From IMG/VR virus record IMGVR_UViG_3300045988_096784: a stretch of 64,000 nt of DNA. One strand, 5' to 3'. Positions within the stretch are counted from its first letter, which is position 1. Every line of letters begins with the position of its first letter. Source of the DNA: a virus. Under the pieces are notes generated by a model that had not been told where the DNA came from, searched no databases, and saw only the letters and a program-made list of their open reading frames with translations. This document shows, in pieces, positions 1,836 to 49,600 of the stretch. A program made the translations under genes and the position numbers.

Positions 1836-1914
1836 CTTCCTTTCTTACTTTCTATAAATATTATATCATATTTATAAAAATTTTTCAAATGTTTTCAAGA
1901 CGCTAGCTATTTAG

Positions 1915-1987
1915 CTCCGGAAATCGGATTCGAACCGATAATTTTTCACTTTGAGTTGAAATGTCTTAACCATTTGACTATTCTGGA
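1915..1987 (-). tRNA. atypical tRNA-like gene with 8-nt anticodon loop (ACUCAAAG); anticodon ambiguous (CAA or UCA depending on register)
   Basis: Perfect T arm ATCGG-TTCGAAT-CCGAT, acceptor with one A-C mismatch, perfect 5-bp anticodon stem TTTCA/TGAAA enclosing 8 nt, CCA not encoded. Confidence 0.4.
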
Positions 1988-2049
1988 AATAGATTTGCTG
2001 TATGCGTCTTATAGCAAGAGGGCCCTCCTATTGGGTCTGTCCTCTTAAA

Positions 2050-2125
2050 TGGTACTCCGAGCTGGACTCGAACCAAGCATCAAGCGATTATAAGTCGCCC
2101 GTTCTAACCTTTGAACTACCGGAGT
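2050..2125 (-). tRNA. tRNA-Ile (anticodon TAT)
   Basis: Acceptor ACTCCGG/TCGGAGT, anticodon stem GGCGA/TCGCT, loop CTTATAA, T loop TTCGAGT, CCA encoded; T stem slightly imperfect. Confidence 0.6.
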
Positions 2126-20332: not shown

Positions 20333-20336
20333 ATAC

Positions 20337-27231: not shown

Positions 27232-27296
27232 ATTATAGCATTTTTAAATAAATTAATCAAATAAGATTTGACAATCTAGTTTTTTTTTGTTATTAT
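27232..27296. promoter_or_regulatory. divergent promoter region: leftward TTGATT-17-TATAAT and rightward TTGACA-17-TATTAT
   Basis: Back-to-back consensus elements separating the minus-strand block from the plus-strand late operon. Confidence 0.55.
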
Positions 27297-27320
27297 ATGA
27301 GTATAAAAGGAGATGACAGT

Positions 27321-28367
27321 ATGATAAAATTAGATTATACTATTGAGTCTCCAGAAGAACGGAAGGCGCTTGTCGAAAAAATAATCGCAGAAAATCCGAA
27401 CCTTAGTTCGAGTTATTTAGAAATATTAGCAGATTATTTAGTTCTATGTATGGAAAAGCAAGAGAAGAAAGAAAAGAATATATTAACAGATAATAGAATG
27501 GCTACTGTTAATAAAAGAGAATGTTCTTTCGAAGGGCTTGCGTCATAGATGGAAAATGGCGAGGATGGCATTTATGGTTTAATGTCAGAAAATAAAAATG
27601 TTATATTTTAGCCAAAGATTTCTATTACACAGAAAGATTTAGATACTATACCATGTTTAAAATAGTTGAGAGAAACCATTAATGTCTGGGAGGGCGCTTT
27701 AAAACGCGCTGCTGGGACAAAATAGGCATATATGATGAAAAAAGCATTAATAGAGATGCGAAAAGATTAGTATATCATTAAGCAAGCATATTAGAAACCT
27801 ATTATACCATGTAAATTAACGAGATCCGTAAGAACTCATATTCCTCTTGATGATTAGAGTTATCTTAATGGACAGGAGGTAGTAGTAAAGGGTATTTCGC
27901 TAATGGACGCCAATGTTGTTTCTGCTATTTTATGCAATTATTCAAAATTAAAAGAAGATAGTTATGATTAGTTTGAGGGAGATACATGGTATTTAATTCA
28001 ATCATTTGAAGAAATATGTGATAAAGCTCTTAAAGACTTTCCAATCTATTTACGAATTGTTGAACTCAAAATTGATAAAAAGTAGAATAACGAAATATAG
28101 GAAATATTAAAAAATGAGTTTGGTAAAACATATAGTGTTGAATATATTTCTAGCCTATGGAGAAATAAGATTCCTAAACTCATTGCGGAAGAGGCTTTAG
28201 AAGATTTTTTACGTTGGTAGTATAAACAAAAAGGATACCCAATGAAAAAATGTTCTAAGTGTGGGCAATTAAAGCCAGCCCATAATCAATTCTTTTCAAA
28301 GAATAAGACAAGCAAAGATAACTTATATAGTATCTGTAAGCGCTGTCGCAATAAGAAAAGAGGTTGA
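27321..28367 (+). CDS. hypothetical protein (about 348 aa), 12 in-frame TAG, C-terminal CxxC...CxxC zinc ribbon
   Basis: AAGGAG ribosome-binding site, ATG; one frame through 12 TAG to TGA. Confidence 0.55.
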
Positions 28368-33309: not shown

Positions 33310-34569
33310 TTGCATATTAGTGTTCCCATTTTAAATACGATGGAATATATTTAGAACACTTAGATTTCTCCTCTAGTTAGTAAAGGTGTCTGCAAAGTTT
33401 GCTATGTTGGGTAGCAACCTAACCGCAACCATACTGTAATTACCAAAGAAGTGGCCGCGGAAATGGGACGTAAACTACCAGGAAGTCCTATTGTTGGATA
33501 TTTTAATCATGAAATAAATGATTTTGAAGGCCACAACAGAGAAATTATTGTTCGAGATGGTAAGTTTGCTATTGTTGATACCACAAGACCATATGGATTT
33601 GTTCCTACAAATGCAAATGTATGGTTTTAGAAGTTCAATGATGAAGGCGTAGAAAGAGAATATCTTGTGACAGATGTATACATTTGGACTAGCGTTTATC
33701 CAGAATCTAAAAGAATCCTGGAGAATGGCAATAACCATTCTATGGAATTGAATGAAGAAAATCAATCAGGATTTTGGACAAAAGATGATAAAACAAATGA
33801 AAGAATCTTTATCTACAATGAGGCATTGATTGAGAAATTATGTGTTCTCGGAGAAAATGTTGAGCCTTGTTTCGAGGGAGCTCAATTTAGTTCTCAATTT
33901 TCTTTAGAGAATAATCAAGAGTTTTAGAAACTTAAAACTATGATGTATTCTATGATGGATCAATTAAAAGAAACTTTAAATAAAGGAGGCTCTCAAGAAC
34001 CTATGGAGAATGAGAAGAAAGTACCTACTGATTTCGAGAAAAATACTCCAAATCCCGAAGAGGATAAGAAGAAAAAGACTTCTGAAAATCCTGCTCCAGC
34101 CCCAGAGGGAGAAAAAGAAAAGAAAAAGGATACTCCTCAAGGTAAGAAGTATAATCTTGAAGAAGTAACAGAATATACAGAGTTACTTACAAAGTTTACC
34201 GATTTAGAGACTAAATATTCTGCTCTTGAGCAAGAAAAAACTAATCTAGATAATGAAGTTACAGCACTAAGAGAATTTAAACTTAATGCTGAACGTCAAA
34301 GTAAACAACAAATGATTGATAGTTTCTATATGTTAAGTGATGAGGATAAGAAAGATGTCGCTGAGCATATTGATACTTATTCTTTAGATGATATTGAAGC
34401 TAAATTATCTATTCTTTGTGTTAGAAATAAAGTAAATTTCAATCTTGAAGAAAAGCATAAAGAAGAAGATAATACCCCAAAGGGACTTTTTAATTTAAAT
34501 AATCCAGAAACTGACAACGTTCCTGATTGGGTAAAAGCAATTCGTGAAACTGCTAAAAGCAGTATTTAA
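33310..34569 (+). CDS. putative prohead protease/scaffold fusion (coiled-coil C-terminal half), 6 in-frame TAG
   Basis: TTG after AAAGGAGGG; C-terminal half is charged heptad-like (ELLTKFTDLETKYSALEQEKTNLDNEVTALREF). Confidence 0.5.
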
Positions 34570-34582: not shown

Positions 34583-35272
34583 ATGGCTAAGAGTTCTAAA
34601 AGATTAGGTAATGCCACTTTTGTCCAGTATGGATATGGTCAAGTGGAGCCAAACCATCTTTCCGCTCCAAGAAATGGTCAAGTATATGCTCAGCTTCCCG
34701 CAGCTAGCGCTATTGAGATTCTTGAGAACGGTCAATTTGTAAAGTATGATTATGCAAAAGGCGTATGCGATTTTAGTACGGAAGCTACTTCTGGCGCCTG
34801 GATGATGGTATTTAATGAAGTAAAGATTTATAGAGATCGCGAAACTGATGCTGATTTTGCTATGATTAAGGATAATTATAATGCTCGTGTATATAGTCCA
34901 ATTGGACAAACAGTTTCTACACTTGCTACAATAAGTGATTATACCGGAGAAGCTGTACGCGAAGGTAGTGATGTAGCATATAAGAAAAATATGGAGACAT
35001 TTACTTATCCTGCATTGATGCCAGAAGGAACTAAAATGGTACCTCGCGTAATTAAGATTAGTATTGGTGATATTTGGACTACTAATACCATTAAAGCTAA
35101 TGCCGGAGAGCTTGCAGTAGGCGATCGTCTAAAGATTGATACTGATGGATATTTAACTAAAGATACTGAAACTTCTGCTAAAGGTGGAGATTTAGATCCT
35201 ATCTTTGCAGTAGTAAAAGTGTATACTATGCCAGATCTTCAACCTGGTGTAAAAGTACAGCGTGTAGGTTAA
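34583..35272 (+). CDS. capsid-associated structural protein (229 aa), no TAG
   Basis: AAGGAGG ribosome-binding site; codon usage of a highly expressed gene; between scaffold and major capsid protein. Confidence 0.6.
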   Translation: MAKSSKRLGNATFVQYGYGQVEPNHLSAPRNGQVYAQLPAASAIEILENGQFVKYDYAKGVCDFSTEATSGAWMMVFNEVKIYRDRETDADFAMIKDNYNARVYSPIGQTVSTLATISDYTGEAVREGSDVAYKKNMETFTYPALMPEGTKMVPRVIKISIGDIWTTNTIKANAGELAVGDRLKIDTDGYLTKDTETSAKGGDLDPIFAVVKVYTMPDLQPGVKVQRVG

Positions 35273-35291
35273 TTGGAAGGAGTGAAGAAGA

Positions 35292-36344
35292 ATGTTAGAT
35301 AAAGCTAATTTACTTAGTTTAATGAAAACTGTCGCTAATGCAAATCCTTCTGGTACCTATAGCTATCAAGGAGAGTCTTTTAGCTATGACGCTTTAAATA
35401 CTACTTTGCGTAATGAGCTAAATGAATTTGTTGGCACAGATGAACTTTATAGAGAAAATAAAAATACTCTATTCTCTTTAATTGAGCAGACTATGGATGA
35501 AGTTGTTCCTAATCGTTTACTCAATTCTTATGGCAATTTTGCTGAGATTAGAACTTTCGCACAAGGCGACAAGCCTGTATTTACTCGTAGAACTGGACTT
35601 ACTCGCGCTAAGCAATTCATTACTCGTGTGGGGCTTGCTGGTGTGTATGAGACCTTTAAGCTTGGTTCTGAGAGCTTCGAAGTTGGAACAAGCGCCATTG
35701 GTGGAGCTGCTCGTATCGGATTTGAGGAGTTCCTTGATGGAAGAGTAAACTTTGCAGAACTTACTCAAATTGTAACAGAGGGTATGCAAGAGCTTATTTA
35801 TAGAGAGATTGCTCAAGCTCTTATGGGTTCTATCAATCAGCTTCCCGCAGCAAACCGTTGTGCTGTTGCTGGTTTTGACGAATCAACTATGGATTATCTT
35901 GTAAATACTGCTACTGCTTATGGTCAACCAACTATTTATTGCACTCGTGAGTTTGCAGTAAAAATGATTCCAGACAATGATGCTTGGATTTCTGACAATA
36001 TGAGAGATCAGTATTGGGGAACTGGTTATCTTGCAAATTACAAGGGAACTAGAGTGGTAATTCTACCTCAAACTCTTGAGGATGAGACTAACTCCAAAAA
36101 GATGATTGATCCAGGTTATGCTTGGATTATTCCTGGTGGAGCTGAGAGCCGTCCTGTAAAAGTTGCTTTTGAAGGTACTACCCACGTGCGCGAACGCGAT
36201 GATAATGACGACTGGTCTCGTGATATTCAGGTTTACCGTAAGGTTGGTGTCGGTGTAATGATGGCGAATAACATCTTTTCTTATGTTGATACTGAACTTC
36301 AAGGCGAGCTTGATAATACTAACCCAAATCCAAATAATGGTTAA
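35292..36344 (+). CDS. major capsid protein (350 aa), no TAG
   Basis: Size, position, biased codon usage, followed by strong terminator. Confidence 0.65.
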   Translation: MLDKANLLSLMKTVANANPSGTYSYQGESFSYDALNTTLRNELNEFVGTDELYRENKNTLFSLIEQTMDEVVPNRLLNSYGNFAEIRTFAQGDKPVFTRRTGLTRAKQFITRVGLAGVYETFKLGSESFEVGTSAIGGAARIGFEEFLDGRVNFAELTQIVTEGMQELIYREIAQALMGSINQLPAANRCAVAGFDESTMDYLVNTATAYGQPTIYCTREFAVKMIPDNDAWISDNMRDQYWGTGYLANYKGTRVVILPQTLEDETNSKKMIDPGYAWIIPGGAESRPVKVAFEGTTHVRERDDNDDWSRDIQVYRKVGVGVMMANNIFSYVDTELQGELDNTNPNPNNG

Positions 36345-36350
36345 TTGACA

Positions 36351-36380
36351 GGGGATAGGGAAATATCCCTATCCCCTTTT
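36351..36380 (+). terminator. rho-independent terminator ggggataggg-aaatat-ccctatcccc plus T4
   Basis: 10-bp stem directly after the capsid gene. Confidence 0.65.
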
Positions 36381-36408
36381 ATTTATTGAGAAAAAGGAGA
36401 TAAAAATT

Positions 36409-36942
36409 ATGAAAAATAATTGCACTGTTTATAATAAGAGCGCAGGTCGTGTTGTATATAGATTGCCTGAATTGGGCGTGCGCCGTATGTTTTACCCTGG
36501 AGAACACAAGGAACTTGAAGTATCTGAACTAGAAAAGCTAGTACAAACACCTGGAGGCCGCAAATTAATTTATAATTACTTGCTTGTGGATGATAGAGAG
36601 ATTGTTGAATATCTTATTAATGGTAGGGTTGAACCAGAGTATTGGATGAAAGAAGAAGAGATTGATTCTTGGATGAATACGTGTTCTTTAGATGAATTTA
36701 AGGATGCTCTTGATTTTGCTCCAGAAGGCACCAAAGATCTGATTAAATCCCATGCTATTTCTCTTCCCTTAAATGATATGTCTAAAAGAGATGCTTTGGA
36801 AAAACAATTAGGATTTAATGTTACTAAAGCATTAGAATTAACAGCAGATGATAAAAAGAATCCTAAGGAAGAGAAACCTGTAAGAAGAGTGTCAACTACA
36901 AGTGAGGATGCTCCAAAACGCAGAGTAGCTATTTCTGATTGA
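36409..36942 (+). CDS. hypothetical structural protein (177 aa), no TAG
   Basis: ORF. Confidence 0.55.
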   Translation: MKNNCTVYNKSAGRVVYRLPELGVRRMFYPGEHKELEVSELEKLVQTPGGRKLIYNYLLVDDREIVEYLINGRVEPEYWMKEEEIDSWMNTCSLDEFKDALDFAPEGTKDLIKSHAISLPLNDMSKRDALEKQLGFNVTKALELTADDKKNPKEEKPVRRVSTTSEDAPKRRVAISD

Positions 36943-36961
36943 TATAAGGGAGGTTATAGCC

Positions 36962-37504
36962 ATGGATAATAAGAAATATCCAATTTAGGGCGATCCGACC
37001 CCCTTTGAAGAAATTTATGATAGATTTTTTGGTAAGATTACTGATGATATGTATATGGAATGGACATAGGAAGATACTGAAAAAGATTTGTATAACATCC
37101 TAATGGATGCACTTCCTGGTTTTGAGTTCCCTCGTTTTCCATTATACAGTTTTACCAATATAGAAAATAATGATGAAGAGACTGGAATAGCAACTATTAT
37201 TCCAGCCTTTTCTGCACATTTAACGACAGAAGAAATAAATATTCTTGCTATTCTAATGTATAATACTTGGTTACAACGCCAGGTGGCTTCAATAGAATAG
37301 ACGAGAATGAAATATTCTGGAACAGATTTTAAAATGACTTCCTAGGCCAATCATTTAGCCAAATTAATAGAGTTGAAAAAGGAAGCAGAACGTCAAAGTC
37401 ATCATATGCAGCGTCTCTACAAAAGAAGAAAACTAATTGATAATCAAGGCTCTTATAAATCAAACTGGTCAACATTAAGAGAGATGAGTGTTTTTGATGG
37501 ATAA
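36962..37504 (+). CDS. head-tail connector/adaptor candidate (180 aa), 4 in-frame TAG
   Basis: GGGAGG ribosome-binding site; continuous frame to TAA. Confidence 0.5.
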
Positions 37505-37805
37505 ATATGATATTAATTTCCCATTAGAAACAAAAGAGTAGGATTTAAAGAGATTGATTAATTAGTTATGGAAGTTAATTCCAATGAGAGAGAATAATGA
37601 AGACTGGGTAAATCATTTGAATGTAATAACAGAAGAAATTAGTGGATTAGTTAAAATGTATAAAGATAGAGTTGAGGGACTTATTTTATTGTCTAAACTG
37701 GAAGGGTTATCTTCAAATGTCTGTAATGATTTTATGATTTATCGAAAAACAGTCTTTAGATGTATTGATTTGTTGGCGTAGGTGATTAGAGATGACGAAT
37801 CTTGA
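37497..37805 (+). CDS. hypothetical neck protein (102 aa), 3 in-frame TAG; start overlaps previous stop (ATGGATAA)
   Basis: Frame contains ORF-track fragment 37584-37781; ends TGA. Confidence 0.45.
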
Positions 37806-38784
37806 ATTAATGCGAAAAAGATTTGAATGGTAGGGTGGTATTCACTAGGAAGATAGAATGATCAAAGATAAATGGAGAACTCTTTAGAAAGCATTATTAT
37901 ATTCTTATCAAGCCTGTACTGTTCAATTAGTCTAGAAGTCAACCTAGGTTTTAGATGCAACGTTAGATGCTGTTGATCCAGATATGAATATTTATCCTAT
38001 GTGTCGTGCGCTTATTAATCCAGATAAAGTGAAACAGGACTATGATGATAAGATAATCTCCATAGATCATATTAATCAATATGCGCCTGGAGATGTCTTT
38101 GAGTGGAAAAAAACTGGCACTCATTGGATAATTTATCTTGAAGAAATAACTGAGGACGCTTATTTTAGAGGGGAAATAAGACGTTGTAGATATAGAATTA
38201 AGTTTAAAGATTAGGAAGGGAATTGGTGTTAGACTTGGGCTGCGATTCGAGGTCCAGTTGAAACCCAAATCGAGTCTATTTAGAAGAATCAAGAAAGATT
38301 GGATAAACCTAATCTTAGCTTAAACATACTTATGCCAAGAAATGAAAAAACTATTCATGCTTTTGATAGATATAGTGAATTTTTGTTCGCTGGAAGATGT
38401 TGGAAAGTTTAGGCTCCAGATGATATAAGTATGAAGAATGTAATTGAAGTGAGTGCAGAAGAAGATTATATAAATAGAGATACTGATGATATAGAAAATA
38501 GTATGAAAGATGGTTTAATATTCGAACCAGAAGATCCTACTCCAAATAGCGGGATTATGGGAGAGACTTTTATTAAACCAATGATAGAAGAATCTTATTC
38601 TGTAGAAGAAGCTAATGGAGCTTGGTCAATATTGGAAAAGAATGTTCCTGTAACTTTATGTCCAAATGGAAATAAATCTGTTTAGTTGGTGTGGAATAAA
38701 ACTACTCATGGTCAATTCACTCTAGTATGGAAGAAGGATAATACTGTACTGGAAAAAGTTATTGTAGTAGAATCTTTATTTTAA
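37792..38784 (+). CDS. hypothetical head-tail joining protein (330 aa), about 9 in-frame TAG
   Basis: AGGTGA ribosome-binding site, ATG; frame joins fragments 37984-38214 and 38431-38685; ends TAA. Confidence 0.5.
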
Positions 38785-38799
38785 GGAGAGTGAATTGAA

Positions 38800-39336
38800 A
38801 TGAAAAAAAATACTTATGAGTATCCTAAATCTAGTTTGTTAGGTATGTAGAAAGATGCTTCTCTGATTATGGAAAGAATACTTTCTAATTAGAATGTTTT
38901 GAAATTATTAACTTATAATACTAGAGATTGGAAAAGTAAACCGACCGTTACAGGAGATATGATAAAGGAAATGATTGATACTAAGTAGATTTCTGCTGTT
39001 CCTAAGATAAAGGTTGATAGACCAGAAAAATCTTATTTAAGATTGATCTATGGCACTATGGTTAGAAATTCTACAAATCCTGAATATAGAGATAATACAT
39101 TTGGTATTGATATTATTTGTCATTATGATAATTGGGATTTGGGAGATTATGATTTACGGCCTTATCGAATCGCGGGAGAGATAGATTCAATGCTTGATGG
39201 AACTCATTTAACGGGTATAGGAGAGCTAGAATTTGTATCAGCTACGCCATATATATATGATGAAGAATTTGCTGGTTTGTCTCTAACATATCTTGCTATT
39301 CGCGGAAATGAAGATAAGGTAAATCCGCTTGCTTGA
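38800..39336 (+). CDS. hypothetical structural protein (178 aa), 3 in-frame TAG
   Basis: AAGGAGAG ribosome-binding site; C-terminal part equals fragment 39043-39336. Confidence 0.5.
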
Positions 39337-39352
39337 TTATAGACTAGCTTTA

Positions 39353-40078
39353 ATGGCCGGGATTGATATTCCCATTCCTGAATTACAACTTACTATTCAC
39401 GTTCCCGTCATTAAAGAGATAGCTCTTATGGGAGAGACAAAATTTTTTATGGCAGTTCAATATTTATGTTTAGATAAAGAATCATTAATATAGGACGAAA
39501 CTCTTTTATCATCATTAACTAATTTTCAAGTATTGATGAAGGTGTTAGAATAGTCACAGGATAAAGATAAAAAAAATGCTGTTATTATGCTACTTACATT
39601 ATTATTTCCTGATTATATACCAGTAATAACTAGAAATTCAATAATTTTAACTAAGCAAGGAGAAAATTAGCCTTTGTTAATAGATGATAATAACTTTGAT
39701 ATTTTTCAAAGCGTACTAAAAGAGATTTTGTGTGTAAACAGTCTATTTTAGGGAAATAATGTTATCTATAATCCAGCTAATGACCGAGCTAAAGAAATTG
39801 CTGAAAAGTTAATGCGCGGTAGACGAAAAGTAGCAGAAATCAAAAGCAAAGGAAATAATGAGAGTGTTCTAACACGCTATATATCTATCTTGACAATCGG
39901 ATCTAATACAATGAGTTTAGAGGATTGCTTAAATCTAAATATGTTTTAGATATTTGATTTGATGGAAAGATATAATGCGTTTATTGAATGGGATGTTGAC
40001 TTGCGGGTTCGTCTTGCGGGCGGCAAACCAGATAAACCAGTTGAATCATGGATGCGAGATATACATCCTAAAAATTAA
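39353..40078 (+). CDS. hypothetical tail-completion candidate (241 aa), 6 in-frame TAG
   Basis: Continuous frame to TAA at 40076-40078; start without clear SD. Confidence 0.4.
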
Positions 40079-40092
40079 GGAGGAATTAGCTC

Positions 40093-41484
40093 ATGCGTTT
40101 TGGTATTCGTGAGATTTGCGATGTAGTACTTCGTGCCAAAAGCTATCAGACTTTAGGTAATCGTAAGTTCTATAAAAATGAACCAGTTTTGTACTTTGAC
40201 ACTTTAAGAACCTCTACTCTTGAAGGTGCTGCAACAACTGTATACGCACAGGGCGGACGTGGATATACTAGATTGATTGCTTGGGAAGGTGAGCGTACTC
40301 TAACATTTACAATGGAAGATGCTTTACTTTCTCCAGAGAGCTTCTCTATTCTTTCTGGTGCAGGTCTGCTTGATGCAACAAAAGAAGCTCCAATTTACGT
40401 TCATCAAACTTCTCAGGTAGAAGTTGAAACAGCTAACACTATCGTAATTCCTGATAAAGCTTGCTGGAATGGATTTGCAGATCATGAAAATGAAATGTAT
40501 CATCGTTCTGCTGACATTTTTGTAATGGTATTAGGAGATGATGGTCAAGTTAATGCTGAACCATGCATTCCTGTTTCTGTTTCTTATACAGAGGACGGAA
40601 AATCAACTTTAACTTGTTATTCTCATGCGGGAGTGCTCCCATCTGGTACTATCGTTTTAGTTGACTATTATGTAAAGCGCACTGGTGGCGCCCAGATGAT
40701 TGAGATTACCGCTGATAAGTTTGGTGGAAACTATTATCTTGAAGCTTCTACTCTATTCCGCCGTGAGAGCGATGGCGTAGATATGCCTGCTGAATTTATT
40801 ATTCCTAACTGTAAGGTTCAGAGTAACTTCACATTCAGCATGGCTGCTAACGGTGATCCATCTACCTTTACATTCACAATGGACGCTTTCCCAGACTACA
40901 CTAAGTTTGATCAAACTCATAAAGTTCTTGCCGCTATTCAGGTAATTACTGATGAAACTGGGGAAACCGAAGGCTCTCGTGAGCCATGCTCTGAGAATGT
41001 TGGTACTTATGAGAGTGAAGCTGCTGATGTAACTGTAAATTTTGTTTCTAACAGTGCCACAGAGGCGGAACTTGATGTAACTGGTATTGTAACAGGAAAG
41101 GCTTATGATACTGAGGCTTATGGAGATACAATTCCAGAAGCCGCACAAATTAGCCTCCAAATTCCAGTAGAGAGCGATAGTACCAAGTATACTGTAGTAA
41201 CAACTAACCCAGCATATGAGAAATACTTCTCTACTGATGACTGTATTGAGGGCAATACAAAGACTCAAACCGTAGATGGCGCAGAATTGGCAGATGGCCT
41301 ATTAGTAATTCTTACTAAGGAGAGTAATACAACTCCTATTACAGCTAAGATTACTAAGATTAACGGAGACTTTGAGAAGAGTTATACTATTAATAATAAG
41401 CTCAGTTTTGCAGAAAGCACAAGCACTTATTCTGGCGCAAAAATGCGCAATAAGTTAGTCTCTGTTAGCGATGACACCATTTAA
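40093..41484 (+). CDS. major tail protein (463 aa), no TAG
   Basis: GGAGGA ribosome-binding site; biased codon usage; lies 1.5 kb upstream of chaperone and tape measure genes; strong terminator follows. Confidence 0.6.
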   Translation: MRFGIREICDVVLRAKSYQTLGNRKFYKNEPVLYFDTLRTSTLEGAATTVYAQGGRGYTRLIAWEGERTLTFTMEDALLSPESFSILSGAGLLDATKEAPIYVHQTSQVEVETANTIVIPDKACWNGFADHENEMYHRSADIFVMVLGDDGQVNAEPCIPVSVSYTEDGKSTLTCYSHAGVLPSGTIVLVDYYVKRTGGAQMIEITADKFGGNYYLEASTLFRRESDGVDMPAEFIIPNCKVQSNFTFSMAANGDPSTFTFTMDAFPDYTKFDQTHKVLAAIQVITDETGETEGSREPCSENVGTYESEAADVTVNFVSNSATEAELDVTGIVTGKAYDTEAYGDTIPEAAQISLQIPVESDSTKYTVVTTNPAYEKYFSTDDCIEGNTKTQTVDGAELADGLLVILTKESNTTPITAKITKINGDFEKSYTINNKLSFAESTSTYSGAKMRNKLVSVSDDTI

Positions 41485-41488
41485 TTTT

Positions 41489-41526
41489 AAGGGAGGACTT
41501 AATAAAGTCCTCCCTTTTTCTTTTTA
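41489..41526 (+). terminator. rho-independent terminator aagggaggacttt-aataa-agtcctcccttttt
   Basis: Perfect stem plus T run. Confidence 0.65.
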
Positions 41527-41543
41527 TAAGGAGATATAGGAGT

Positions 41544-42986
41544 ATGGATGTTAATATTTATGATTATGTATAGCGTTGGTCTTTAAATTATATTGTTTAT
41601 CATAGTAGTCATTTAAGAGAATATGGAGATGTAGAATCCGCAAATATTCTCTTTAGTGGATAGTATCAAGAGGCAATGAGTAAAATGAAGACTGCGGGAA
41701 TTGAGACTTAGATTGTATCAATTCAAGAATAGATGCGGTCTAAAGGTCCAGTTGCCGCGAGTGGGTTAAGAGTTTTGAGTGATTTATAGATTGGTACCTT
41801 ATTGGATTCTACTCTTGATTAGATCGCGGCAGGTATCAATGAAGGAATTGAATTAGCCGGTGGATAGGTAAATTTTGAGAATTATAATACTATATTACAA
41901 TAGGCTGGCAATTTTAATAATTTGTTGGCTAATGGGGCACCTGATATAAAAAGAGTTAATGATTTTTTTAGATTATTGATATAGGCTCTTATGAAAGCCA
42001 ATATGATAAATGTCAGTGTTCTTGATGCTTTAACCTAGATAGGAAGATCGCTAATTGGTACTAGTTTTTAGATAGATAATTCTTAGCAGCACTATGTTAT
42101 GTCCATTGAAGATGGGGATATCAATGTAGCGAAAGAAGTAATAGATTCGTTGAGTAGAGCGGTTTCAAGATTAAATGAAGGTGGAAGTGTAAACTCTAGA
42201 TCTTTTGCTAATACAATATCATATATTTTTAGAAAAGTTATTGGAAATTAGATTAGTCAAGCTATAGTCGCAGAAGGTATATCTATTGGAATTAATACTG
42301 CGGATAGTATATTAGATACTGCTATTAAGTAGTCTGGTGGAAAATTAAAGTGGGTTGATAGAGGATAGAATACTACTTCTGACAATGGAAGTAGAGGTGC
42401 TGTTAAAGTTTTTAATAATGATGTTTTTAATTTGTCAGTAACTAAGGGTAATCAAGTATTTAATATAGAAATTAGTGCTAATGTTAATGCAAAGTGGTAG
42501 AATAAAAAGAAATCTGCAAATAGAATTTAGGTTTTTTCAAATATGAATGTAGGGGATTATTTTTCTGGTTAGCCAGAAAAATATCTTGCTTATAATATGA
42601 TTGCTCATAGATTCACTGGATCAGATTTTGAAGAATCTTTTAATAATATTCGTGCATCGGTAGCCGCCTCATTTTTTAATGAATGGGTTTCTTCTGGCGG
42701 TCTAGCTTCTTCTAAAGGACATCTTGGTCAGTTACTTATTGTTAATGGTAAAGTTTTTTCTATTTAGCGTATTATAAATAATATTTGTGATGACATAGTT
42801 CGCAATAGCGGTCATGAAATAGTTTCTATTGGGGGAGAAAATTCTACTGGTAATAAGTGGTATGGAAATACTGGTCCAAATGTATTAGACGCTTTAACTC
42901 GTAGTAATATAGTTAATGAAGTTATAAGTAAATTAACAATTTCTGCTACATTAAACAATAATATATTGTCTAAATACGCATATTAA
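41544..42986 (+). CDS. hypothetical tail protein (480 aa) with about 22 in-frame TAG (invisible to a standard-code ORF finder)
   Basis: AAGGAG ribosome-binding site, ATG; single frame from 41544 to TAA 42984-42986 read by hand. Confidence 0.45.
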
Positions 42987-42990
42987 AAAC

Positions 42991-43019
42991 TTGACAATAG
43001 TTAATTTTTCTAGTATAAT
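42991..43019 (+). promoter_or_regulatory. internal late promoter TTGACA-17-TATAAT
   Basis: Perfect consensus hexamers 30 nt upstream of the chaperone gene. Confidence 0.55.
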
Positions 43020-43051
43020 AAAAATATAAATGAGATAAAGGAGTTTTTACA

Positions 43052-43591
43052 ATGAGTGAAATTACTTTTAAAGATTTGGGTTTGGAGCCTAAAATTAAAT
43101 ATACAGAAGTAAAAATTGGAGAAGATAAGATTTTATCTGTGGTTAATTATCTTCCGATTGCAGATAAAACAAATCTTATTACTTTTGTCGCAGATTTAGC
43201 GATAGATGAGATGACTGGGTGTTTTAGTCCGGTAAGAGTAGAAACTTATTTTGCTATTGCTATTTGCAGATGGTATGGTGGAATTGTTTTTGAGCAAGAA
43301 GATGTGCATGAAAATATTGCCAAAACTTATGATACACTAGAGACTAATGGTGTTATTGATGCAGTTAGAAGTGCTATTCCAGTAGATGAATTGTCTTTTA
43401 TTGAAGACTTAGTTAGAGATACTTTAAGCGATATAGCAAGATATAATAACTCTGCCGCAGGCATTATCCAAATGATGAATAAAAATGCTTCTGGATTAGA
43501 TACATATATTACTGATATAATGGAAAAAATTAAAAATGGTGAGAATCTTGAAACTTTATCAGTAATTAAAGATGTGGTTGGAAAAGATTAA
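43052..43591 (+). CDS. tail assembly chaperone candidate (179 aa), no TAG
   Basis: Acidic about 180-aa protein immediately upstream of the tape measure gene. Confidence 0.5.
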   Translation: MSEITFKDLGLEPKIKYTEVKIGEDKILSVVNYLPIADKTNLITFVADLAIDEMTGCFSPVRVETYFAIAICRWYGGIVFEQEDVHENIAKTYDTLETNGVIDAVRSAIPVDELSFIEDLVRDTLSDIARYNNSAAGIIQMMNKNASGLDTYITDIMEKIKNGENLETLSVIKDVVGKD

Positions 43592-43696
43592 TAAATCTAA
43601 TATAATTTACAAATTAGATAGAGAATTAAAAGGCTCTTGAGATATAATTCTCAAGAGCCTTATTTGTTTTATGGGTGATAAAGGAGGAAAAGGATT

Positions 43697-46600
43697 GTGG
43701 CTAATAATAGAAGATTAAATTATTAGATTGGGTTTGATGTTGATACTGCTGAACTTTACAGAGCAGTAAACGAGGCAGTTCAATCTTTAAATAAAATCAG
43801 TGCCGGTTCTAAAGTTACAGCAGAATTGCGACAAGCTTCTTAGTCTGCGCTAGAGTTATCTACTTATATGCATTAGGCATTTAATCAAGGGACTGGAAAG
43901 TTAGATTTAGTAGCTTTTGAAAATAGTTTAAAATCTAGCGGAAGAATTCTTAAAGATTATGCCAACTCGTTAATTTCGATTGGTACCGAGGGGCAAAAGG
44001 CTTTTTTAAATGTAGCAACAGCGATTCAAAAAGCGGAGCTTCCAGCATTGCGCACTGGCAAAATATTTGATTAGTTATGGATTACTATGAAAAATACTAT
44101 GAGATGGCAGATTACCTCCACCGCGTTAAATAGTTTTGTGGAAACCATAGAATCAGCTTATGGGTATGCACAAGATCTAAATGAATCATTAACAAATATT
44201 CGTATAGTTACTGAAAATTCTGCGGAAGACATGGCTAAATTTGCTCAATAGGCAAATGAAGCAGCAAAAGCATTAAGTACAACTACTGTTGAATATAGTG
44301 ATGCTGCTTTGATTTATTATCAATAGGGTCTTACTGAATAGGAAGTTTTAGATAGAACTGAAACTACTATTAAAATGGCTAATGCCGCAGGAATTAGTGC
44401 ATAGACCGCTTCGGATCAGCTGACCGCAGTTTGGAACAACTTCTATGATGGAAGTAAGAGTCTTGAATATTATGCTGATGTAATGGCGCGTTTAGGCGCC
44501 GATACAGCGTCTAGCTCTGATGAAATTTCAGAAGGTATCCAACAATTTGCCTCTGTAGCAGATACAGTTGGATTAAGTTACGAATATGCTGCTTCTGCTC
44601 TTGCTACTGTCACTGCTACGACACGTGAGTCTGCTAATACAGTAGGTACAGCATTTAGAACTTTATTTGCTCGTATCCAAAGCTTAAATCTTGGAGAAAC
44701 TCTCGATGATGGCACTACATTAAATAAATATTCTAAAGCTCTTGAAAAAGTGGGTATTGATATTTTTGATGTTAATGGTGAGATTAAAACTATGGATACC
44801 TTACTTGATGAAATGGGTTCAAAATGGGAGACCTTATCTAATGACTAGTAGATTGCTTTGGCTTAGACCGTAGCCGGAGTTCGCCAATATACTCGTCTTA
44901 TTGCACTTATGGATAATTGGGATTTCTTTTAGGAGAATTTAGCTAGTGCTTATGGAGCAGAGGGATCTCTTTAGGAACAGGCAGATATTTATGCTGAATC
45001 TTGGGAAGCTGCTAGAGATAGAGTAAAAGCATCTGCTGAGGATATTTATGATAGTGTCATAAATCCAGATTTGTATATAAATGCAGATAATGTCTTAACT
45101 CCATTTTTATCTGGTATTGCAGACGCCATTGATGCAATGGGAGGGTTAAATGGTATTTTAGCTAGTACCGCTTTGTTGATTAATGGGATTTATGGAAATA
45201 AGATTGCTGAATCAATGCGTTCTATGGTGGCTAATATAAAAGTTCTATCTGGATTAGAGTAGAATAGAGCGAGAAATTTGTAGGCATCAGCGGCTGAGAT
45301 AGCAACTCAATTAGGCTTAACAAACTCTATGTCTTAGGCTGAAAAAAATCTTTTTAATATTATGGTTGACTAGGCTAATATATAGGGCCAAATAAATAGT
45401 AACTACGACGCGATGGATGCTAATGGTCGTAGATTAATTTAGACAGAACAGTTAAAATTAAGTATTTTGCAAGATTAGTTAAAGACATATTCTTAGTAGT
45501 AGATTTAGTCTAGGGAAAATGTATTAAATCTTAGAGATACTATTTATTTTAATATAGGAATAAAAGATGGCTGGCAAGAAGAAGTTAAAGCAGAAATAAA
45601 TAAATTTAATAGTAGAAATAAAAGTAATCAAATTTAGTTAAATATAAGAGCTAATAGTAACCTTGATAAAATTTATAATGATGTTACTACTTAGTTAACT
45701 AGTTTAATTTAGCAATCTACAAAACTTGATACAGTGTATCAAGAATTTAAAAAACTTGAAAGCGCTGGAACTGCGACTAGAGACAGCCTTCGTAATTTAT
45801 TATCTAGTGTTACGGGCAAAGAACATAATTATGCTTAGATTGAATGGCTGACTTAGCAATTAGAGGGGTTAAAAAATTAGTCTCAAAATGCAAAATTGCA
45901 AATTCGTGAACTTGGGACTATTTTATAGACTATGGGAGCCGATCCAAGAGTAGTTACTTCTTATATTAATGAATTAACAAAATTGGAGTCTGTTACTGCA
46001 AGAACAACTGAACAAGAGGCTCGATATTAGGAATTGTTAGCGAAGTTCCCTAGTGTAATTATAAAAGCATTAATACCAACGAGAGATTGGGCTACAATAT
46101 TGGTTTAGGTTGGAAGTTCTCTTTCTAGTTTAACTATGATTATGAATGCTTTTTAGAGCATTGGAAGAATTTTTTCTGATGAAGATATGACTTCAACTGA
46201 AAGAATTGTAGCTTTGTTTACTTCTCTTGGTATGTTACTACCCTCTATTATTTCTGTTTATAAAACTTTAAATATGTTAACTACTGCTCATGCTGTTGCA
46301 GCAGCGGCGTCCGCCGCGGCAACATCAGTAGAGGCTTTAGCGACAGAATAGCTTGCTATGGCGAAGCAGAAAGCCGCTATGGCTTCCGGCATCTTAACTG
46401 CTGCAATTATGGTAGCAATAATAGCGATTACTGCAATAACAAGTGCTATAAAAGCATAGCATGAAGCAACCTTGGCTGCTGCTTAGGCCTCTATTGATGC
46501 GGCAAATGCAAAAAAAGAAGAAGCACAAGCGAATAGAGAGTTAATTCAATCTACTCAAAATGCCTTATCTACTTATCAAGAAACTGGGGATGGAAAAGAA

Positions 46601-49600
46601 GAGTTAGATGATTTAACTCGTTAGTTGGCTGAAGCGTATGATTTAGAAGGCAGTGCATTAGCTAGACTAAGTGGATAGTATGAAGATTATAATAGTGTTT
46701 TAAAAGCTGCTCAAGAAGCTCAAAGAAGAGAACTTTAGGAAACTTTGTAGTCCCAAGAAGAAGCGTTACGTGCGAATGAAACTCTCATTCTTGAAACCGC
46801 GAGAGAGGGCGTGGGCCACGTATATTTTGGTGGAAATTATGAGGGGTCTTTTACTGGTTTTAATGATTTTTGGAATGGCACCGAAGAAGATACTGCATCT
46901 AATATTCTTCTCAATAATGTGGACGCTTTATATAGTAGTTGGAATGACAATGTAATTGGCGGAAGAAGAAACTTAGCTTTTTCTATAGACCCAAATAATA
47001 CAGAAGAATTAATTAATTTTTATGATCAATTAAATAATGCTATTAATTTGATGAATAATAGCATGACTGTTTCGGAAAGAGGAGCATCTGGACTTTACAA
47101 TGCTGCTGTTGAGTGGCGAGATAAAATGGAAGAGGTTGTCACTCAATATAAAGAAACTAAAGAGAGTATAAATGCTATTCGGGTATAGCTTGGAGAGTTT
47201 AATAATTAGACTATTACCGATGATCAAGTATCAAGTTTAGCGTAGTATAAAATTTGGGTTAACGAAGTTACAGAGGCGCTCACTTCTGCTGGGTATGAAG
47301 GCGAAGAATTAAACGATATAATCAATGATTTAGTATCTACTTCTCTGAATCCTGATATTAGTGGCTTTAAAGATATTTATGACGCAATTTTAGAGGTTGA
47401 AGAATTAGTCAATGATGAAGAATTAAAAAGTAATCTTGAATCTATTTTTACAGATGAAAATTATGATACTTCTGTATTAAATTTATTAAATTGGGGTGCT
47501 TTAACATAGGAGACTTTTTAGGATGCCTATGACAGTGCTAAAAAATATACTGATGCTATTTCCGAAGTTGAAAACGCAACAGAATCTTTAACTACTGCAC
47601 AATCTGCCTTAGAAACTCTTGGAGATAGAGATTTAGATCGAGAAGGATTAGAATCACTTTCTAAAACTGTTGATTGGGGAAATCAAGAAAAAGGAATTAT
47701 TGATTTTAATTAGTTCCTTGCTATGACTTTGGTTGAACAATAGAGTTATTTATAGAGGATTATAAATGAGTCCTATTAGGCTGTCAATAATGGATTAATA
47801 GATTAGATTAGTGAAGCAAAAAAGAGAATAACTGAGCAATAGGATATTTTAAATCAATATAGCGATTCTGAATTAGAACGTGCAGAAAAAGTTGTTTATG
47901 CTTGGGAACAAGTTCGAGAAGCGTATAATGATTATCAAGGTAGCTTAAATAGCGGAGAAGAATTTAATCTTGATAATTATACGATTGATTGGGATTTGTT
48001 AGGTGAAAATTTTGATTGGGAATCTTTTAAAACCGAAACTGCGGATAACGTAGCTAGTGCATTTGAGTATGGGACAAAAGAAGCTCAAGATAAAATTGAT
48101 ACTGTAACTTTAGCAGAGTAGCTAATTAGTAGTTTATAGGATGATATAGATTCTAGCACAGCTTAGTTACAAATAAATGCAGAATTAAATTTTTAGAATC
48201 AATTAGATTAGATTGAAAATTCCGTTGATGGAATTGTAAGTGTATTCGATGCTATTTCTGATGGAGTAAGCTAGACTACCAATGAAGCTGGAGAACAAGT
48301 TTGGAGTTTTAGTAGAGAAGCAGCTAAGGCTATTGAATCTATCTATCCAGGTTTTATAGCTAACGCGGAATTATTAAGGGATGGTACATTTGCTTTAACA
48401 GATGAGATGTATCAAGCATTTTATAATAGTTCTTAGGGGCAATTAGCTGTTGATGCTGATACCAAATCTAATATGCTTCAAAATCTTATTTCTCTTTTAG
48501 AGGCTAAACGAGGAGAGGCTGAAGCTTCGCTTAAGATCGCTGATCAGCTAGCTTCTGGAGAATTAACTATAAACGAATTATCAGATGAGCAGAAGAGAAC
48601 TTTATTAGCGGGATATGTAAATGCTTAGAATCTTGCTAATGGAGAAATGTTAGATGATTAGGTCAATAGTTTAACCGCACAAGATACAAATTAGTAGACT
48701 TTATGGACTAATGTTAGCGAGTATTCTGCTTAGGGCGCGCAGAACATGAGTACTAATGTATAGTTAAATACTCAAAATGTTCTTGCTAATCTTGAAAAAA
48801 TTAGAGATGCGGCATATGCTACTGGAATTCAAGTATCTCAAATAGGAACTGATAATGTTACTAAGCAAGATTTTGATACTTCTGCTGTTTCTTTTGATAG
48901 TTCGGCTGCAACAACAATAGATACGAGTAACGCTGATGATTTCTTAAATTCTTTAACTGCAAATTTAGATGTAGAACCTGTAACCGCAGACGATTTAAAT
49001 ATTTATGGTGATGCTAGTGAGGCACTTGAAGCTAAGCAATCTTAGGCAGTTGGAGAAGCGCTAAGGGCCATTTATTAGGGGAGTATTGATGGGTATAATG
49101 AGGCTATAGCAGCAGCAAAAATAGCCTAGAGCAAATTATTAGATTCTATTGATGGAGCTATAGAAGGAGTAAAGGGAAGTTCAAGTGGCGGAGATAATGA
49201 AGGCACTAAGTATGACGAAGAAGATGAAAAGACTCTAAAGGATATTGAAGATAGATACCATGAAATAACTCGCGAAATTGAGAATTAGAACGATTTATTA
49301 GATGATATTGGAAATAATATAGATAGAGCCTATGGAGCCAATAAACTTCAAGCATACTAGAGAGAACTTCAAGAATTGGAGAAATAGCAAGCTAATTATA
49401 ACAAACTACTTAATGAAGCTGAAACTTATCTTACAAAAGACTAGGCAGATCTTCAAGGGTTGTTTAATAATTCTCTTATTTTTGATGAAAATGGAGAAAT
49501 TGAAGATTATCAAAGTGTTCTTCAATCTATAATAGATGATTATAATAATAATTTCTTGGCAGATTATAATGCTTTTTTAGTTACCTTTAGTAATCTTACT

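What the first reader, a model, noticed from the sequence alone, without database searches (positions are those of the whole stretch)
34583..43591. TAG codons are absent from the most abundant structural genes but saturate their neighbours
The major capsid protein (35292-36344), its upstream structural protein (34583-35272), 36409-36942, the major tail protein (40093-41484) and the chaperone (43052-43591) contain zero TAG. The tail protein 41544-42986 has about 22 in 480 codons and the tape measure gene about 5 percent of codons. Such polarisation suggests suppressor-limited translation: high-copy proteins avoid dependence on the suppressor while low-copy tail genes tolerate or exploit it.
Basis: seen in the sequence. 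Interest (0 to 1): 0.7.

Follow-up and report, generated by a model that had tools for sequence, protein, structure and literature searches.

The report
Top virion genes avoid recoded TAG
In a gut phage that reads the stop codon TAG as glutamine, the proteins needed in hundreds of copies per virus particle never use TAG, while their neighbours use it for half of their glutamines. This fits ordinary selection for efficient translation and refines a known phenomenon; it is not a new system.

Summary
The + strand module from 27.3 kb to the window end only forms long ORFs if TAG is sense. Twenty of its genes carry 273 in-frame TAG (52% of Gln codons). Five genes (34583, 35292, 36409, 40093, 43052) carry none among 37 Gln codons (P about 1e-12).

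Out-of-frame TAG, GC3 and dinucleotides are normal in the five, so the avoidance is frame-specific and not foreign DNA. The depletion recurs in about 8 related lineages and in phAss-1.

Three of the five are the highest-copy virion proteins: major capsid, a capsid decoration protein (fold match) and the tail tube protein. They also purge other non-optimal codons, as do their orthologues in a standard-code Enterococcus phage. Capsid and tail tube genes are each followed by a strong terminator.

Corrections:
- 41544 has 19 TAG, not 22.
- The tape measure gene is 3.5% TAG, not 5%, and is at the module average.
- TAG share is homogeneous among the 20 TAG-bearing genes, so "exploit" is unsupported.
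- 36409 and 43052 have two Gln codons each; in the window alone their TAG-free state is not significant.
- "Chaperone" for 43052 is unverified.

Best reading: translational selection against a still-costly reassigned codon. This is a known kind of phage, with a sparsely documented detail.

The parts
33340..34569 (+). Head-assembly gene in the scaffold/protease position (phrog_3313, function not established). It has 5 TAG in 17 Gln codons, the lowest share among TAG-bearing genes.
   Evidence: Depleted across lineages (18 TAG observed, 41.6 expected, P = 5e-7). It lies 13 nt upstream of 34583, so it is probably co-transcribed with the TAG-free genes.
34583..35272 (+). TAG-free gene: probable capsid decoration/cement protein (0 TAG in 8 Gln codons).
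35292..36344 (+). TAG-free gene: major capsid protein (0 TAG in 13 Gln codons).
   Evidence: tblastn finds annotated major capsid proteins of Bacillus phages and 52% identity to phAss-1. PC1 +4.09. Orthologues: 0 TAG in 135 Gln codons. Two independent CAG-to-TAG polymorphisms occur in 99%-identical contigs.
36350..36377 (+). Intrinsic terminator-like hairpin (12 bp stem plus T run) 6 nt after the capsid gene.
   Evidence: A hairpin at the same position but with different sequence occurs in lineages A, A2, B, C, E and F.
36409..36942 (+). TAG-free gene of unknown function (0 TAG in 2 Gln codons; moderately codon-biased, PC1 +1.49).
   Evidence: Not significant in the window alone (P = 0.23). 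Orthologues: 4 TAG in 55 Gln codons against 15.8 expected (P = 5e-5).
36962..40078 (+). Five head-completion, neck or tail genes carrying TAG (4, 3, 10, 3 and 5 TAG). 39353-40078 is TAG-enriched across lineages.
40093..41484 (+). TAG-free gene: major tail (tube) protein with a C-terminal extension (0 TAG in 12 Gln codons).
   Evidence: tblastn of residues 1-270 finds proteins annotated major tail protein, tail tube protein or virion structural protein in Tsamsa-like Bacillus phages and 949-like Lactococcus phages. phrog_2729. PC1 +3.77. Orthologues: 0 TAG in 65 Gln codons.
41489..41516 (+). Intrinsic terminator-like hairpin (12 bp stem plus T run) 5 nt after the tail tube gene.
   Evidence: Hairpins at the same position occur in lineages A, A2, E and F.
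41544..42986 (+). TAG-richest gene (19 TAG in 26 Gln codons; 480 codons). Function unknown and fast-evolving.
   Evidence: Enriched across lineages (67 TAG observed, 45.8 expected, upper-tail P = 2e-5).
42991..43019 (+). Perfect sigma-70-type consensus promoter (TTGACA, 17 nt, TATAAT) directly upstream of 43052.
   Evidence: the only 12/12 match in 19 kb. The motif is also visible in lineages A2 and E.
43052..43591 (+). TAG-free gene (0 TAG in 2 Gln codons): conserved helical protein of unknown function in the position of a tail assembly chaperone. Codon usage is typical (PC1 -0.63).
43630..43661 (+). Intrinsic terminator-like hairpin (13 bp stem) after 43052.
   Evidence: Conserved in position in six lineages.
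43697..52423 (+). Tape measure protein gene (GTG start behind AAAGGAGG). It has 101 TAG in 2908 codons (3.5%), and its TAG share of Gln codons is at the module average.
   Evidence: Pfam PF10145 PhageMin_Tail, E = 3.9e-30. Binomial test against the module average p = 0.36.
27268..28367 (+). Strong sigma-A-type promoter (27268-27296, with TG extension) and the first late-strand gene (probable start 27321). The gene is labelled 'sigma factor' only by phrog_5767 and carries 11 TAG.
   Evidence: No Pfam support.
194..2125 (-). Eight tRNA genes, the end of a larger array of more than 30. No suppressor lies inside the window. The amber suppressor tRNA (anticodon CTA) lies roughly 15 kb beyond the window start, in an IMG/VR contig that is 99% identical to the window over 21 kb.
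   Evidence: (L042:3731-3800 in contig IMGVR_UViG_3300045988_080502).

Best explanation
The window comes from a code-15 (TAG = Gln) siphovirus of the phAss-1 / SPbeta-like group that infects a gut Firmicute.

In the late module TAG has become an ordinary Gln codon. In most genes it sits at about the frequency that mutation bias alone would give. Reading it still depends on a phage suppressor tRNA that must compete with the host release factor, so each TAG carries a small risk of premature termination or delay.

That cost scales with how often a gene is translated. Purifying selection therefore removes TAG, along with other non-optimal codons (ATA, AGA, GGG, CGA/CGG, GCG), from the genes made in hundreds of copies per virion: major capsid, capsid decoration and tail tube proteins. 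Low-copy genes keep TAG at the neutral level.

Shown here: the frame-specific depletion, its conservation across lineages, its covariation with general codon bias, and the identity of the three proteins.

Inferred: that the cost arises from release-factor competition or tRNA supply, and that these genes are the most heavily translated.

The TAG-free state of 43052 (own consensus promoter, typical codon usage) and of 36409 may have other causes.
For: 1. Recoding. ORF coverage of the late half of the window roughly triples when TAG is sense. Window TAG codons align mostly with CAA, CAG or TAG in relatives, and show the same substitution spectrum as CAA and CAG do. An identical tRNA with anticodon CTA is present in the 99%-identical contig.

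2. Depletion. 0 TAG in 37 Gln codons against a 52% share elsewhere, P = 1.2e-12. Off-frame TAG is normal.

3. Conservation. In 10 representatives of about 8 lineages (capsid identity 100% down to 52%) the five families have 5 TAG in 378 Gln codons, while neighbours have 13-55%. The depletion is nominally significant in every lineage (one-sided Fisher p from 2e-12 to 0.016).

4. Mutational input without fixation.
- Ordinary late genes exchange TAG with CAA/CAG fast: 22 of 95 window TAG codons differ in a lineage whose capsid protein is 97% identical.
- The capsid gene shows two independent CAG-to-TAG polymorphisms among 99%-identical contigs.
- No TAG is found in it in any lineage representative, although capsid, decoration and tube genes of relatives mostly use CAG, the one-step precursor.

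5. General codon bias. Compared with the other late genes, the five genes taken together have:
- CGT+CGC at 60% of Arg, against 22%
- ATA at 5% of Ile, against 32%
- GGT at 44% of Gly, against 28%
- GCG at 4% of Ala, against 15%
PC1 of codon usage, computed without Gln codons, separates 34583, 35292 and 40093 (+3.1 to +4.1) from all other late genes (-2.1 to +1.0). It also correlates with TAG share among the remaining 20 genes (rho = -0.54, p = 0.014).

6. Same genes biased in a standard-code relative. In Enterococcus phage EF1 the orthologues have ATA 0, AGA 0-0.11 and CGT+CGC 0.67-0.91.

7. High-expression architecture. Strong terminators directly follow the capsid and tail tube genes and are conserved in position. 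The 2908-residue tape measure implies a very long tail and hence hundreds of tube subunits (inference from the tape-measure rule).

8. Same transcription unit. The TAG-free capsid and decoration genes lie 13-19 nt behind TAG-bearing 33340, and the tube gene lies 14 nt behind TAG-bearing 39353. Transcription class therefore does not separate them.

9. Neutral-looking usage elsewhere. TAG share is homogeneous among the 20 genes (p = 0.33), and TAG:CAG = 6.1 against TTA:CTA 5.9 and AGA:CGA 7.2.
Against: No expression, proteomic or read-through data exist for this phage, and the host is unknown. 'Optimal codons' are therefore inferred from the pattern itself, from EF1 and from general knowledge of Firmicutes.

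The lineages share ancestry, so the pooled P values overstate independence.

43052 is TAG-free in all lineages yet is not codon-biased. 36409 is only mildly biased and carries TAG in two lineages.

Early genes share the same codon dialect (PC1 +1.41). The axis could therefore reflect independence from phage tRNAs rather than expression level.

The decoration-protein call rests on a model with mean pLDDT 56.

The nucleotide after TAG shows no suppression-friendly context beyond background.

Borges et al. reported a tail tube family enriched for TAG in crAss-like phages, so the rule may not be general.
Confidence: 0.65

Rival explanations
1. Independence from the code switch (timing or robustness). 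The TAG-free late genes are kept readable in both codes, like the early genes. They can then be translated whenever their mRNA exists: before suppressor tRNA has built up, or in cells where suppression is weak. Abundance as such would not be the cause.
For: - All early-strand genes are TAG-free, and TAG is essentially never used as a stop.
- Early genes and the TAG-free virion genes share the same codon dialect (PC1 +1.41 and +1.5 to +4.1, against -0.59 for TAG-bearing late genes).
- 43052 has a perfect host-type promoter and its own terminator, yet no codon bias.
- The dual-coded early block is an established idea (Mgcod preprint).
Against: - Capsid, decoration and tube genes sit 13-19 nt behind TAG-bearing genes with no convincing promoter of their own, so they are probably transcribed together with them.
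- The suppressor tRNA sits in the early-strand tRNA array and should already be present when late mRNAs appear (inference).
- The three genes are more biased than the early genes for CGT, ATT and GGT. The same bias is present in a phage with no code switch.
Confidence: 0.15
2. Lock model. TAG is positively selected as a translational lock on genes whose premature expression is harmful (terminase, portal, tail lysins, lysis genes). Capsid, decoration and tube proteins are harmless and were simply never locked.
For: - Borges et al. propose recoding as a regulator of late and lysis genes and found lysis genes enriched.
- The first TAG lies early in most TAG-bearing genes (codon 3-84), and TAG sits slightly towards the 5' end (p = 0.05).
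- The sigma-like first late gene carries 11 TAG behind a host-type promoter.
Against: - One or two TAG would lock a gene, yet TAG is a uniform 52% or so of Gln codons in all 20 genes, including about 100 in the tape measure gene.
- TAG:CAG equals other T/C first-position pairs, as expected for neutrality.
- Absence of positive selection would leave the capsid gene at the neutral level, not at zero in 135 codons. New TAG do arise in it.
Confidence: 0.1
3. Graded rheostat. The number of TAG per gene is tuned so that partial termination sets virion protein stoichiometry.
For: There is an ordering from capsid, decoration and tube (0) through the scaffold-position gene (0.29 in the window, 0.13 pooled) to the rest (about 0.5). 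41544 and 39353 are enriched across lineages, and they flank the tube gene.
Against: In the window, TAG share is homogeneous across genes whose products differ widely in copy number, such as portal, terminase, tape measure and fibres (p = 0.33). The distribution is bimodal, not graded.
Confidence: 0.06
4. Recent acquisition of the five genes from a standard-code phage, or plain chance.
For: The total GC of 34583, 35292 and 40093 is higher (0.38-0.40 against about 0.32). 36409 and 43052 have only two Gln codons each.
Against: - GC3 (0.17-0.27) and dinucleotide distance (75-123) lie within the range of the other late genes. The extra GC is at codon positions 1 and 2, that is, amino-acid composition.
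- The genes are syntenic and diverge in step with their neighbours across all lineages and in EF1.
- Joint P = 1e-12 in the window, and P from 4e-23 to 3e-4 per family across lineages.
Confidence: 0.02

Closest known systems
Code-15 (TAG to Gln) recoded gut phages with an early/late code partition (Ivanova 2014, from memory; Yutin 2021; Borges 2021 preprint 10.1101/2021.08.26.457843; Peters 2022 PMC9523058; Mgcod preprint 10.1101/2022.06.29.495998)
   Same: In-frame TAG is confined to late structural genes. Early genes are readable in both codes. A suppressor tRNA(CTA) is present. TAG is abandoned as a stop. The genome is AT-rich.
   Different: Those studies describe block-level partition and tested only for enrichment (lysis genes; a tail tube family in crAss-like phages). 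Here the contrast is inside the late block, gene by gene. The tail tube gene is TAG-free, the opposite of the crAss-like result.
phAss-1 / proposed Phassvirus group (Babkin et al. 2023, PMC10607447)
   Same: Same broad clade: capsid protein 52% identical, syntenic head-tail module, large tRNA array with suppressor tRNA(CTA), human gut origin, probable Clostridia host. Their text implies that the phAss-1 capsid gene has no TAG while TerL and the tape measure gene do.
   Different: The window belongs to a different, much more heavily recoded lineage (TAG 54% of Gln codons against 15% in phAss-1). The paper does not analyse or discuss gene-level avoidance.
Note on a TAG-free major capsid gene in one amber-reassigned crAss-like phage (bioRxiv 10.64898/2026.08.21.746148)
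   Same: It reports that the capsid gene 'shows no alternative codon usage' and suggests pressure to match host translation.
   Different: It is a single-genome remark without statistics, Gln normalisation, other genes, relatives or a codon-bias test. It concerns a different order of phages with a Bacteroidota host.
Translational selection on codon usage of phage structural genes (Lucks 2008 and Carbone 2008, from memory)
   Same: Capsid and tail genes carry the strongest host-type codon bias. Here the reassigned codon behaves like one more non-optimal codon.
   Different: The classical work concerns the 61 sense codons. Here the disfavoured codon is a reassigned stop whose cost would include termination, not only slow decoding.
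T7 gene 10 with terminator T-phi (from memory)
   Same: A terminator placed immediately after the major capsid gene marks the most abundant late transcript. Here the same arrangement follows both the capsid and the tail tube genes.
   Different: This is only an architectural analogy. There is no homology and no transcription data here.

Membership tests
Code-15 recoded phage (TAG read as Gln) | Conserved late genes are interrupted by in-frame TAG and become full-length ORFs when TAG is sense. | tested here: met
   TerL, portal and tape measure are restored as full-length ORFs, with family matches.
Code-15 recoded phage (TAG read as Gln) | TAG positions correspond to Gln in homologues. | tested here: met
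   Against a close lineage, 86 of 95 window TAG codons align with TAG, CAA or CAG. The substitution spectrum is the same as for CAA and CAG. Caveat: the alignments were made with TAG translated as Q.
Code-15 recoded phage (TAG read as Gln) | Phage-encoded suppressor tRNA with anticodon CUA. | tested here: met
   It is not in the window. It is present in the 99%-identical IMG/VR contig 080502 and in four other contigs. Acceptor stem positions 2-6 and G73 match the phage's own tRNA-Gln(UUG). Overall tRNA similarity was not diagnostic.
Code-15 recoded phage (TAG read as Gln) | Early genes are free of in-frame TAG, and TAG is not used as a terminator. | tested here: met
   Stops on the early strand are TAA 33, TGA 5 and TAG 1, and that single case is a read-through ORF.
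Code-15 recoded phage (TAG read as Gln) | The host uses the standard code, and Gln is actually inserted at TAG. | not testable with these tools
   The host is unknown and there are no proteomic data.
phAss-1-like group (Babkin 2023) | Homologous and syntenic capsid, portal, TerL and tail module, plus a large tRNA array. | tested here: met
   (L001).
phAss-1-like group (Babkin 2023) | Genus-level nucleotide identity to phAss-1 (proposed Phassvirus). | tested here: not met
   Protein identities are only 31-58% across the module. The window phage is in the same wider group but not the same genus.
Translational selection in highly expressed genes | A distinct codon usage in the putatively most expressed genes, independent of the codon under study. 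| tested here: met
   PC1 was computed without Gln codons. Three of the five genes are strongly separated, one moderately, and 43052 not at all.
Translational selection in highly expressed genes | Preferred codons match the host's abundant tRNAs or its highly expressed genes. | not testable with these tools
   The host is unknown. Indirect support: the same genes are biased in the same direction in Enterococcus phage EF1.
Translational selection in highly expressed genes | The genes concerned really are the most expressed. | not testable with these tools
   This is inferred from function and from the terminators. There are no expression data.
Recoding as lysis-timing regulator (Borges model) | Lysis genes are preferentially enriched for the recoded codon. 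| not tested
   No lysis cassette was identified in the window.

The most novel reading that the evidence does not exclude
TAG load is an evolved control layer and not just a tolerated codon. In this reading, a host-type promoter drives a TAG-laden sigma-like gene, so the suppressor tRNA would license late transcription. TAG-enriched genes (39353, 41544) flank a TAG-free tail tube gene. TAG-free, terminator-capped cistrons for capsid, decoration and tube proteins would then form a code-neutral production core whose output does not depend on the state of the code switch. Per-gene TAG number would set both the order and the stoichiometry of virion proteins.
Probability: 0.12. Interest if true: 0.65.

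Novelty: new member of a known kind. Interest (0 to 1): 0.4.

Why it matters
- It suggests that a reassigned stop codon in a phage is not yet cost-free. It behaves like the worst of the non-optimal codons and is purged where translation flux is highest. This bears on how codon reassignment spreads through a genome.
- The clade offers a ready-made series of lineages, with TAG at 14%, 30% and 54% of Gln codons and capsid and tube genes at zero throughout.
- It tempers the view that recoding is mainly a regulatory lock. In this genome most TAG usage looks neutral.
- Practical point: capsid and tail tube genes of such phages stay intact under standard-code gene calling. That would explain why marker-based tools still detect recoded phages, and it means these markers cannot be used to infer a phage's genetic code.

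Tried and rejected
- Context of TAG. The base after TAG is A in 37.5% of cases, which equals the all-codon background (p = 0.67). There is no suppression-friendly signature.
- Suppressor identity by overall tRNA similarity. This was not diagnostic, because long-arm tRNAs score highest. Only the acceptor stem resembles the phage tRNA-Gln(UUG).
- PDB sequence searches for 36409 and for the capsid protein found nothing. Pfam found nothing for the five proteins.
- A second recoding (TGA) in the GC-richer 14-24 kb region. The apparent ORF gain is made of overlapping spurious frames. The region holds many small standard-code genes.
- Rfam finds only tRNAs.
- 'TAG adds extra Gln'. Total Gln codons per orthologue are the same in lightly and heavily recoded lineages, so TAG replaces CAA and CAG.
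- Foreign origin of the five genes was rejected on GC3, dinucleotides and synteny.
- 'Sigma factor' for the 27321 gene has a PHROG label only and no Pfam support.

Full report
**What the window is.** Under the standard code the + strand from about 27.3 kb to the window end is broken into short ORFs. With TAG as sense it resolves into 25 long, tightly packed genes behind Shine-Dalgarno sites. Family matches identify:
- a terminase large subunit, an HNH endonuclease and a portal protein;
- a tape measure protein (PF10145, E = 3.9e-30);
- virion structural proteins.

The - strand half (2.6-26 kb) holds many small genes with no in-frame TAG. Their stops are TAA 33, TGA 5 and TAG 1.

The capsid protein is 52% identical to that of phage phAss-1 and 36% identical to SPbeta-like Enterococcus phages. 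phAss-1 is a published TAG-to-Gln phage with suppressor tRNAs and a probable Clostridia host (PMC10607447).

Eight tRNA genes sit at the window start, none of them a suppressor. Walking outward in IMG/VR contigs that are 99% identical to the window shows an array of more than 30 tRNAs. It includes a tRNA with anticodon CTA roughly 15 kb beyond the window, on the early strand. Window TAG codons align mainly with CAA, CAG or TAG in relatives. The window is therefore a code-15 phage of a known group.

**The observation.** The other 20 late genes contain 273 TAG, 203 CAA and 45 CAG, so TAG is their majority Gln codon at 52%.
- Given 37 Gln codons in the five genes, the chance of no TAG is 1.2e-12.
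- It is individually significant for 34583, 35292 and 40093.
- It is not significant for 36409 and 43052, which have two Gln codons each.
- TAG in the other two reading frames is as common in the five genes as elsewhere.
- GC3 and dinucleotide signatures are typical. The higher GC of three of the genes comes from codon positions 1 and 2.

41544 has 19 TAG, not about 22, and the tape measure gene is 3.5% TAG, not 5%. The tape measure gene is not special: its TAG share equals the module average.

**Relatives.** A capsid-protein scan of IMG/VR returned 31 loci in about eight lineages, with capsid identity from 100% down to 55%. phAss-1 adds one more. In one representative per lineage, the share of TAG among Gln codons in ordinary late genes ranges from 14% to 54%. 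The window's lineage is the most heavily recoded.

Pooled TAG counts among Gln codons in the five families:

| Family | TAG / Gln codons | P |
|---|---|---|
| Major capsid | 0 / 135 | 4e-23 |
| Decoration-like 34583 | 1 / 95 | 1e-14 |
| Tail tube | 0 / 65 | 4e-14 |
| 43052 | 0 / 28 | 3e-4 |
| 36409 | 4 / 55 | 5e-5 |

These P values overstate independence because the lineages are related, but turnover is fast. Against a lineage whose capsid protein is 97% identical, 22 of 95 window TAG codons are CAA or CAG, and 22 of 119 window CAA or CAG codons are TAG.

Two independent CAG-to-TAG changes occur in the capsid gene of 99%-identical contigs, so the mutation does arise. It is not seen in the capsid gene of any lineage representative. 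This holds although relatives' capsid, decoration and tube genes mostly use CAG, the one-step precursor of TAG.

**What the TAG-free genes are.**
- 35292 matches annotated major capsid proteins.
- Residues 1-270 of 40093 match proteins annotated as major tail or tail tube proteins in Tsamsa-like and 949-like siphoviruses.
- 43052 gave a confident helical model with no informative match. It shows no frameshift partner. 'Chaperone' rests on position only.
- 36409 has no assignment.

**Codon usage.** Compared with the other late genes, the five genes together use:
- CGT+CGC for 60% of Arg, against 22%;
- ATA for 5% of Ile, against 32%;
- GGT for 44% of Gly, against 28%;
- GCG for 4% of Ala, against 15%;
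- more CTT, GCT, TCT and C-ending two-fold codons.

A principal-component analysis of synonymous codon usage was run without Gln codons. It puts 34583, 35292 and 40093 at +3.1 to +4.1 and 36409 at +1.5. All TAG-bearing genes fall between -2.1 and +1.0, and 43052 sits at -0.6. Among the 20 TAG-bearing genes the axis still correlates with TAG share (rho = -0.54, p = 0.014).

In the standard-code Enterococcus phage EF1, the orthologues of the same three genes show the same bias: no ATA, almost no AGA, and CGT+CGC at 67-91%. These genes were therefore codon-optimised regardless of recoding.

Early genes of the window lie on the same side of the axis (mean +1.41 against -0.59, p = 5e-6). The phage tRNA array is rich in U34 tRNAs that read the A-ending codons typical of TAG-bearing genes.

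**Transcription signals.** The three strongest terminator-like hairpins in 19 kb lie directly after the capsid gene (36350-36377), the tail tube gene (41489-41516) and 43052 (43630-43661). The only perfect sigma-70 consensus promoter lies directly before 43052.
- Hairpins at the same positions but with different sequences occur in other lineages.
- Capsid and decoration genes follow the TAG-bearing 33340 by 13-19 nt, and the tube gene follows TAG-bearing 39353 by 14 nt. TAG-free and TAG-bearing genes therefore appear to share transcripts.

**Interpretation.** The data fit translational selection. In ordinary late genes TAG behaves as a neutral synonymous codon:
- its share is homogeneous across 20 genes (p = 0.33);
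- TAG:CAG = 6.1, which matches TTA:CTA 5.9 and AGA:CGA 7.2.

In the three highest-copy virion genes TAG is removed together with the other non-optimal codons.

A tape measure gene with about 100 TAG can only be expressed if read-through per codon is near 98-99% (0.98^101 is about 13%; inference). The cost per TAG must therefore be small, and would matter only where flux is very high or where truncated subunits could disturb assembly.

It does not support 'exploit'. It also does not cover 43052, whose own promoter, terminator and ordinary codon usage point to a different reason, possibly expression outside the late programme.

The main rival, that these genes are kept code-neutral for timing or robustness, is not excluded. 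It is weakened by co-transcription with TAG-bearing genes and by the same bias in a phage without recoding.

**Relation to the literature.**
- The early/late partition of recoded codons is well known.
- Borges et al. tested for enrichment only. They found lysis genes and, in crAss-like phages, a tail tube family enriched, the opposite of the tube gene here.
- The phAss-1 paper implies a TAG-free capsid gene without comment.
- A 2026 preprint remarks that the capsid gene of one crAss-like phage lacks TAG and suggests host translational bias as the reason.
- Cook et al. found capsid proteins in 407 of 715 code-15 genomes even under the standard code, against 475 with code 15. That is consistent with capsid genes often being TAG-poor.

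The phenomenon is thus expected and has been noted anecdotally. In the literature I searched I found no quantification, no demonstration of conservation across a clade, and no link to general codon bias.

**Verdict.** The explanation is an ordinary evolutionary force acting on an unusual codon. Interest is moderate.

Noticed in passing
L035:2025-2340 (IMG/VR contig 091188, 99% relative; outside the window): ARAGORN calls a tmRNA gene (tag peptide DNDYFENYLAA*) inside the phage tRNA array. It was not called in the corresponding stretch of another near-identical contig (L034). A phage-borne ribosome-rescue RNA in a phage that suppresses a stop codon could be meaningful.
   Followed up: no
window 26090-27194, - strand: A FolD-like methylene-tetrahydrofolate dehydrogenase/cyclohydrolase gene (Pfam PF02882, E = 2.5e-38) carries 4 in-frame TAG. 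An adjacent 111-codon ORF carries 6. TAG-bearing genes therefore exist on both strands around the divergent region at about 27.2 kb.
   Followed up: partly
window 42991-43661: 43052-43591 is a self-contained unit inside the tail module. It has a perfect TTGACA-17-TATAAT promoter, a strong SD, double TAA stops and a 13-bp terminator. The arrangement is conserved in several lineages. This is a moron-like architecture for a conserved gene of unknown function.
   Followed up: partly
window 27268-28367: A strong host-type promoter with TG extension sits directly before the first late-strand gene (probable start 27321). The gene is labelled 'sigma factor' by PHROG only and carries 11 TAG. If it is a late transcription factor, suppressor tRNA would gate late transcription.
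   Followed up: partly
window 39353-40078 and 41544-42986: The two genes that flank the TAG-free tail tube gene are the only families significantly enriched for TAG across lineages (upper-tail P = 4e-5 and 2e-5).
   Followed up: partly
window 14000-26000: This stretch is GC-richer (0.41 against about 0.32) and holds many small - strand ORFs without recognisable function. An apparent ORF gain with TGA as sense is spurious.
   Followed up: partly
window 31296-31652; L039 (Enterococcus phage EF1) 2680-5788: An HNH homing endonuclease gene with 3 TAG lies between the terminase and portal genes. In EF1 the terminase gene is split around an HNH gene annotated as a phage intron.
   Followed up: no
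L002-L032, L001: Across the clade the TAG share of Gln codons in ordinary late genes rises from 14-17% (lineages C, E, F and phAss-1) through 30-34% (B, D) to 54% (the window's lineage). This is a natural series of stages of codon takeover.
   Followed up: partly
window 1-4111 versus L033: The 99%-identical IMG/VR contig differs from the window by an insertion of about 690 bp next to tRNA-Glu and by sequence replacing the window's tRNA-Asp region. The tRNA array therefore varies between near-identical genomes.
   Followed up: no
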